Shown here: positions 24,861 through 25,415 of the stretch, one piece after another
Position numbering within the stretch: the stretch's first letter is position 1
Layout of the letters: every line of letters starts with the position of its first letter
NCBI GenBank assembly: GCA_964016885.1
Contig: OZ024740.1
Location: forward strand, 12,028,001 to 12,092,000
Reading direction: 5' to 3'
DNA from: Eledone cirrhosa
Taxonomy: Eukaryota
Length of the DNA stretch: 64,000 nucleotides
Made by a program: the position numbers and the translations under genes
The notes under the pieces: model-generated
Seen by the model: the letters and a program-made list of their open reading frames with translations, nothing else
Database searches by the model: none
What the model was told of the DNA's origin: nothing

Positions 24861-25415
24861 AATATAATAATGAAATGACAGGAGGCTGGATTTGTGTAAA
24901 TCCTTTTGAAAGGTTTATTATACTATGATCATTTCAATGACCGGGTTCCGTATGAATCCGGTGATATCATCAGGTATTCGAAATATAATACATGAATGTA
25001 ATAGATAAAATCCATGGGGCTGAAAATCAAGGACCCGAGGGCAACCGCCATCCACCATCTTCTACCTTTGCCGGTCGCCCTCGAGTGACATGGCTAAAGC
25101 TTTCAGTGTGATACTTTTCAGCCCCATAGATTTTATCTATTACATTCACGTATTATATTTCGAATACCTGATGATATCACCGGATTCATACGGAACCCGG
25201 TCATTGAAATGATCATAGTATAATAAACCTTTCAAGGATTTACACAAATCCAGCCTCCTGTCATTTCATTATTATATTTAACTCCGTAATAGCACCACCA
25301 ACTACAAAAACAAAGACGGTTGAACTGCTTTACGTTGAGTACTCTCTATATTATTACATTGAGATTGACCATACAGAATTGACCAGCTCTATCCAGTGGT
25401 GAACCTCAAACCTGA
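24861..25415 (+). mobile_element. Second foldback element in (TA)n: ~165-bp near-perfect inverted repeat plus unique tail (Penelope-like remnant)
   Basis: Arms 24861-25026 and 25115-25278 with few mismatches and an ~88-nt loop; flanked by (TA)n. Confidence 0.75.
25164..25221 (+). ncRNA. Minimal type I hammerhead-like motif
   Basis: Stem I AUAC/GUAU; CUGAUGA; imperfect stem II (aucaccgg/ccggucau); GAAA; palindromic stem III AUGAUCAU; AUA triplet. Confidence 0.6.

What the first reader, a model, noticed from the sequence alone, without database searches (positions are those of the whole stretch)
24861..25415. A sequence-unrelated element with the same architecture: (TA)n - inverted arm - loop - hammerhead arm - tail - (TA)n
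Seen: ~165-bp arms, with a hammerhead-like motif and palindromic stem III (AUGAUCAU) in the right arm and its full antisense in the left arm. No evident primary similarity to 2691-3057. Known: minimal PLE hammerheads with palindromic stem III are proposed to cleave as dimers. Inference: several families of ribozyme-bearing foldback retroelements target TA microsatellites by a shared mechanism.
Basis: partly seen in the sequence, partly recalled or inferred. Interest (0 to 1): 0.7.

Follow-up and report, generated by a model that had tools for sequence, protein, structure and literature searches.

The report
Penelope parasite's head-to-head insertion stub
This mirror-image stretch is two shortened ends of a very common non-coding repeat joined head to head inside a TA microsatellite, a layout already known for Penelope-like jumping genes, and it was likely made when a borrowed Penelope enzyme copied the repeat's RNA once from each side of the cut chromosome.

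Summary
In detail: arms 24861-25026 and 25115-25278, a type I hammerhead on each strand with a palindromic stem III, (TA)n on both sides. The hairpin is not the mobile unit. The 'loop' is simply more of the inverted copy. The locus is two 5'-truncated 3' ends of a 2.64-kb non-coding repeat (3,199 exact hits of a 26-mer), which also occurs as partial tandems with pseudo-LTRs. In 24 of 24 sampled head-to-head pairs one arm stops at a short end and the other carries a ~140-nt tail; each pair has its own junction. Three subfamilies show compensatory changes in hammerhead stems I, II and the palindrome. A coding RT + GIY-YIG element in the same genome has the same layout. Inverted copy plus one-sided tail, dimer-type hammerheads and TA targeting are all published features of Penelope-like elements. 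No coding partner sharing this pseudo-LTR was found, and cleavage and expression are untested. This scan already reported the same pattern on other DNA. Verdict: new non-autonomous member of a known kind; the strict short-plus-long pairing is a modest mechanistic lead.

The parts
24838..24860 (.). Left (TA)n target tract
   Evidence: (array 24838-24866)
24861..25114 (-).
   Evidence: aligns as one piece on the minus strand to other copies
24920..24977 (-). Type I hammerhead motif on the minus strand, identical to the plus-strand one
25027..25114 (-). Apparent 'loop': the part of the inverted copy that reaches further upstream than the direct copy
25113..25116 (.). Inversion junction; blunt or 1-nt microhomology (read by eye)
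   Evidence: (gap of 1 nt by alignment)
25115..25278 (+). Direct, 5'-truncated copy: pseudo-LTR part up to the short end
25164..25221 (+). Type I hammerhead: 4-bp stem I, CUGAUGA core, long stem II closed by a U.U mismatch, GAAA, 8-nt palindrome in place of a stable stem III
25279..25415 (+). One-sided tail (~137-143 nt); in tandem copies it runs on into the body of the next monomer; predicted hairpin in its first half
25416..25532 (.). Right (TA)n target tract

Best explanation
The locus is two 5'-truncated 3' ends of a high-copy, 2.64-kb non-coding repeat joined head to head in a (TA)n tract, and the repeat is likely a non-autonomous Penelope-like element copied in trans by a Neptune/Nematis-type RT + GIY-YIG protein. 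Shown: linear monomer, partial tandems, two fixed 3' ends ~140 nt apart, 5' truncation, head-to-head pairs of one short and one long end, TA flanks, conserved hammerhead. Inferred: a tandem source copy is transcribed; the protein binds the pseudo-LTR/tail RNA and cuts both strands of a TA tract; each DNA end primes reverse transcription at one of the two internal RNA sites; both cDNAs stop early and are joined at their truncation points. Inferred: the hammerhead acts in tandem source transcripts as a dimer through its palindrome (or with protein help), not in this stub, which is probably inert.
For: Partial tandem with 2,639-nt non-coding monomer in L033; 24 of 30 body-start loci have part of the previous unit's 3' end directly upstream (counted by eye). 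Among the first 100 of 3,199 hits: 24 head-to-head pairs, 0 tail-to-tail, 1 direct within 4 kb, spacing 73-1743 nt. 23 of 24 pairs scored long+short and the 24th (L114) is short by its flank. In those pairs the short arm reaches further upstream in 11, the long arm in 10, 1 tie, 2 complex (read by eye). Arms of one insertion share 11 minority variants against 1.3 in shuffles, 0 of 2000 reaching 11. (TA)4+ beside 21 of 24 short and 23 of 24 long ends, background 15%. Covariation in 50 hammerheads, 0 of 500 shuffles for cells changed on both sides. A coding RT + GIY-YIG family here has a U.U-closed, palindromic hammerhead, two ends and a short+long head-to-head copy in TA. Purified PAc protein cuts and extends both strands and starts at two internal RNA sites that define the tail (PMC11167929, parts 1-2 of 4 read).
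Against: No coding element sharing this pseudo-LTR was found in 50 GIY-YIG loci out of 10,597 candidates; the one DNA hit (L162) is an adjacent stub. The tail is ~140 nt, not the 30-40 nt described. The shared-variant signal comes from only 3 of 24 insertions and gene conversion could also give it; this locus has none in the 105 nt tested. Several short/long 'further upstream' calls are blurred by an internal hairpin of the monomer. The covariation reflects three related subfamilies, so few independent events. On its own the hammerhead's lowest-energy fold is not the active fold (-14.9 versus -6.9/-4.0 kcal/mol; z -1.29) and Rfam does not recognise it. PAc belongs to a different PLE clade, and showed no strand preference for start site.
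Confidence: 0.8

Rival explanations
1. Same PLE-dependent element, but the inversion arises by self-priming or fold-back of one nucleic acid strand (as proposed for Adineta Penelope, on an antisense template), not by priming from both target ends.
For: Proposed in PMC3846280 (passages). Arms share subfamily variants in 3 of 24 insertions. Some junctions fall at the monomer's internal hairpin (L238, L240, L249, L252).
Against: Fold-back of a tail-bearing cDNA predicts that the long arm always reaches further upstream, but the short arm does in 11 of 22 resolved pairs, including this one; a short-ended cDNA cannot supply the tail. The antisense-template version is not excluded by these counts.
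Confidence: 0.15
2. A dedicated class of fold-back ribozyme retroelements in which the whole hairpin is transcribed and moves as a unit.
For: Same layout in unrelated families; intact hammerhead on both strands.
Against: All 24 junctions differ; 51 of 75 clusters are not head-to-head pairs of the 26-mer; copies extend into a 2.3-kb body; the hairpin RNA (-319.7 kcal/mol) sequesters the ribozyme.
Confidence: 0.03
3. Two independent insertions into the same TA tract, or a MITE with terminal inverted repeats and a TA target duplication.
For: TA tracts here collect many insertions; inverted arms resemble TIRs.
Against: 0 tail-to-tail pairs of 25 close pairs, no TA between the arms at this locus, strict short+long pairing, variable arm length, 5' truncation, one end lacking any inverted partner, covarying ribozyme.
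Confidence: 0.02

Closest known systems
Insertion units of endonuclease-positive Penelope-like elements: inverted 5'-truncated copy plus one-sided tail (PMC8557442 fig. 2 legend; PMC3846280; passages)
   Same: Partial tandems forming pseudo-LTRs, 5' truncation, head-to-head inverted copy, tail on one end only, (TA)n bias, hammerhead in the pseudo-LTR.
   Different: No ORF; tail ~140 nt instead of 30-40 nt; no coding partner identified.
Minimal and small-stem-III hammerheads of metazoan PLEs (PMC4209133, parts 1-2 of 4)
   Same: Type I, 4-bp stem I, long stem II, palindromic stem III suited to a dimer.
   Different: Stem II is closed by U10.1.U11.1 instead of the conserved G-C; this mismatch is a known natural variant (PMC3088659, passage) and recurs in several families of this genome.
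Non-LTR retrozymes of animals (PMC7229834, passages; bioRxiv 10.64898/2026.07.22.740005, part 1 of 5 and passages)
   Same: Non-coding, tandem, type I hammerhead in each unit, proposed to be mobilised by PLEs.
   Different: Monomer 2.64 kb versus about 200-400 nt; mostly dispersed truncated stubs; circular RNA untested.
PAc (Poseidon, Anolis) in vitro system (PMC11167929)
   Same: Two internal start sites that define the tail, AT-rich target, both strands cut and extended.
   Different: PAc is coding and of another clade; the parts I read do not address head-to-head insertions.

Membership tests
Autonomous EN+ Penelope-like element | Single ORF with telomerase-like RT and GIY-YIG endonuclease | tested here: not met
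   Longest ATG ORF in the L033 copy 110 aa; best tblastn E 0.37 against 62 ORF pieces from neighbouring elements
Non-autonomous PLE-dependent element | Partial tandems forming a pseudo-LTR | tested here: met
   L033 and 24 of 30 body-start loci
Non-autonomous PLE-dependent element | Fixed 3' ends with variable 5' truncation | tested here: met
Non-autonomous PLE-dependent element | Inverted 5'-truncated copy, head to head | tested here: met
   24 head-to-head, 0 tail-to-tail among the first 100 hits
Non-autonomous PLE-dependent element | Tail at one end only, continuous with the 5' part of the next unit | tested here: met
   24 of 24 pairs; read-through in L033; length ~140 nt exceeds the described 30-40 nt
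Non-autonomous PLE-dependent element | Type I hammerhead motif in the pseudo-LTR | tested here: met
   motif and covariation
Non-autonomous PLE-dependent element | Self-cleavage, as dimer or with protein help | not testable with these tools
   needs an in vitro assay
Non-autonomous PLE-dependent element | Insertion bias for (TA)n | tested here: met
   21 of 24 short and 23 of 24 long ends versus 15% background
Non-autonomous PLE-dependent element | Coding partner with related pseudo-LTR/tail | tested here: inconclusive
   none in 50 of 10,597 GIY-YIG candidates; coding elements with the same layout exist
Non-LTR retrozyme (strict sense) | Short (~200-400 nt) tandem monomer | tested here: not met
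   monomer 2,639 nt
Non-LTR retrozyme (strict sense) | Circular RNA product | not testable with these tools
   no RNA run was listed
MITE (DNA transposon) | Fixed terminal inverted repeats at both ends and uniform size | tested here: not met
   asymmetric ends, spacing 73-1743 nt, many copies without partner

The most novel reading that the evidence does not exclude
Penelope-type enzymes insert by twin reverse transcription: the two ends of a cut TA tract are obligately primed at two different fixed RNA sites (~140 nt apart here), and the two cDNAs meet at a random point. The thousands of stubs of this 2.6-kb non-coding, hammerhead-bearing parasite would then be a natural record that can settle how PLE inverted repeats and tails form.
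Probability: 0.55. Interest if true: 0.5.

Novelty: new member of a known kind. Interest (0 to 1): 0.27.

Why it matters
As an element it is ordinary: one of many Penelope-dependent families in this genome, with a published layout. Its value is as data. How PLEs form inverted repeats and one-sided tails is listed as open (PMC8557442, passage). The 24 of 24 short+long pairing, with either arm able to be the longer, favours priming from both target ends over fold-back of one cDNA and fits the in vitro PAc results. A 2.6-kb non-coding monomer would also fall outside tandem-repeat searches capped at 1 kb (the setting in the bioRxiv retrozyme survey's methods).

Tried and rejected
Rfam scan of the window: no hammerhead family among 69 matches, nearly all miRNA-type hits on hairpins and TA/CA repeats. 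Search for a coding partner: 30 GIY-YIG loci plus 20 ten-kb loci, and 30 loci of older subfamilies' 5' body: none shares the pseudo-LTR; the L162 hit is an adjacent stub. Sequencing runs: no RNA holder listed; read depth over this locus was not obtained, so independent confirmation of the assembly here is lacking. A genome-wide count of all subfamilies by one degenerate pattern was not obtained. Lunse et al. (PMC5785218) is not held; I saw only its title in a reference list. RNAalifold on 27 tails gave little covariation (1 of 20 pairs with a double change); my named hairpin has 96.6% paired cells but only one compensatory pair, so tail structure is suggestive only. A base change shared by both arms at this locus's short end was dropped as evidence because another copy's short end (L242) reads the same. 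A 13-nt AT-rich match between this family's short end and a coding family was treated as chance. The automatic 'which arm goes further' count (13 vs 10) was discarded because alignments broke at indels; one search replaces it.

Full report
1. Observation. The sequence matches the description. Arms at 24861-25026 and 25115-25278 differ by 2 mismatches and a 2-nt indel; TA arrays flank the element. A type I hammerhead sits at 25164-25221 and, in reverse, at 24920-24977. The element at 2691-3057 shares no more than a 12-nt local match. Rfam reports no hammerhead family in the window at E<=1.

2. The family. The right arm plus tail has 2,401 candidates in the 3.0-Gb genome, the 40 scored being 97-100% identical. 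A 26-mer of the ribozyme core has 3,199 exact hits, control 0; the first 100 hits form 75 clusters, suggesting roughly 2,400 insertions (extrapolation). Copies have variable 5' ends, and some extend more than 2 kb upstream. L033 is a partial tandem: TA, truncated pseudo-LTR, tail, 2.3-kb body, pseudo-LTR, tail, TA; the monomer is 2,639 nt. The tail is therefore the start of the next unit. Of 30 loci picked by the start of the body, 24 have part of the previous unit directly upstream (by eye). The monomer has no ORF over 110 aa from an ATG and no match to neighbouring RT/endonuclease ORFs. Two older subfamilies exist, each with over 1,400 tail candidates; three copies suggest monomers of about 1.75-1.8 kb (estimated).

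3. What the hairpin is. Bases 24861-25114 align as one continuous minus-strand piece to other copies, so the 'loop' is just the longer reach of the inverted copy; the direct copy starts at 25115. Among the first 100 hits, 25 neighbouring pairs lie within 4 kb: 24 head-to-head, 1 direct, 0 tail-to-tail, with spacing 73-1743 nt. In 30 pattern-anchored loci most 3' ends fall at two places, about 25275-25280 and 25415-25422, with 4 scored elsewhere. All 24 head-to-head pairs were examined: 23 scored one short and one long end, and the other (L114) is short by its flank. Junctions all differ. The short-ended arm reaches further upstream in 11, the long-ended in 10, 1 is tied and 2 are complex (by eye; some calls are blurred by an internal hairpin). 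A (TA)4+ run lies beside 21 of 24 short ends (one miss is an anchoring failure) and 23 of 24 long ends, against 15% of random 35-mers in 36 ten-kb loci. The two arms share 11 minority variants, versus 1.3 expected, but from only 3 insertions. In longer tandem loci the far ends were out of view, so they neither support nor break the rule.

4. The ribozyme. Of 97 distinct motif sequences found I aligned 50, chosen by hand among the ungapped ones to cover the three subfamilies. Stem I has a U-A/C-G change, stem II an A-U/G-U/G-C series and a G-C/A-U change, and the centre of the palindrome switches between AU and UA so that it stays palindromic; 62 cells changed on both sides versus 18 in shuffles, 0 of 500. 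Relatedness inflates this number, and two stem II positions are often unpaired. Stem II is closed by U.U, not G-C; this is a known natural variant (PMC3088659, passage) and appears in at least eight motif types among the loci held (by eye). The monomeric hammerhead fold is less stable than an alternative fold (-6.9 or -4.0 versus -14.9 kcal/mol), while the palindrome forms an 8-bp intermolecular duplex of -7.2 kcal/mol. This fits the dimer model for PLE hammerheads (PMC4209133, parts 1-2 of 4) but activity is untested. A transcript of the whole stub would be a near-perfect duplex of -319.7 kcal/mol, so the stub is unlikely to be the working form.

5. Enzyme source. GIY-YIG has 10,597 candidates in the genome. 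Long ORFs carry RT and GIY-YIG (3 of 3 tested; RT scores just under the Pfam cut-off) with a CxxxCxxC linker, the Neptune/Nematis hallmark in PMC8557442 (passage). One coding family has a U.U-closed hammerhead with a palindromic stem III, short and long ends about 50 nt apart, and a head-to-head short+long copy in TA (L170). So a coding PLE here shows the same layout. None of 50 GIY-YIG loci shares this family's pseudo-LTR; the partner is unidentified.

6. Mechanism. Shown: anatomy and counts above. From the literature: purified PAc cuts AT-rich DNA, extends both strands and starts at two internal RNA sites that match genomic tails; its hammerhead needs protein and is dispensable in vitro (PMC11167929, parts 1-2 of 4). 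Inferred: a PLE protein acting in trans cuts a TA tract, each end primes at one of the two sites, both cDNAs truncate and are joined. This explains head-to-head only, one short plus one long end, either arm longer and variable junctions. Simple fold-back of a tail-bearing cDNA fails in 11 of 22 resolved pairs, this locus among them. Self-priming on an antisense template (PMC3846280, passage) is not excluded. I put the element's identity at about 0.9 and twin priming at about 0.55.

7. Comparison and novelty. Inverted truncated copy, one-sided tail and TA bias are described for PLEs (PMC8557442, PMC3846280, PMC8969392; passages), and non-coding hammerhead repeats are proposed PLE parasites (PMC7229834, passages; bioRxiv 10.64898/2026.07.22.740005, part 1 of 5 and passages; its supplements are closed and could list similar families). 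It is not an autonomous PLE (no ORF) and not a retrozyme in the strict size sense. I did not find the strict short+long pairing or a twin-priming account for PLEs in seven searches; one search listed one review that I did not read, and subscription papers, including Lunse et al., were not available. Earlier notes of this scan report the same pattern on other DNA; one of them states the twin-copy reading, which I adopted after having seen the two ends and then tested.

8. Verdict. Real feature, new non-autonomous member of a known kind, interest 0.27.

Noticed in passing
window 2691-3057; L083: Unrelated family with the same stub layout; its unit is a ~486-nt tandem repeat with a G-C-closed hammerhead, closer to a classical retrozyme; 2,396 candidates.
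   Followed up: partly
window 804-940, 2541-2656, 24761-24830; L167: Stubs of a third family (U.U-closed hammerhead with a real stem III hairpin); 804-940 and L167 show tail, inversion and short end in TA.
   Followed up: partly
window 59672-59715: Small hammerhead-like motif with a 2-nt palindromic loop III, also seen in other loci.
   Followed up: no
L157, L163, L164, L165, L176 (3' of the ORFs): Coding RT + GIY-YIG families whose 3' regions run into (TA)n with no hammerhead found by my pattern, although canonical PLEs are said to carry one.
   Followed up: partly
loci across G000: Dozens of distinct hammerhead types with different palindromic stem III sequences, many closed by U.U.
   Followed up: partly
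window 29929-56719 and 13118-15092: 26.8-kb satellite of a 48-bp unit with higher-order structure, and a 39-bp satellite.
   Followed up: no
L237, L242, L243, L253: Some head-to-head insertions contain jumps between parts of the monomer body, suggesting template switching or internally deleted source copies.
   Followed up: no
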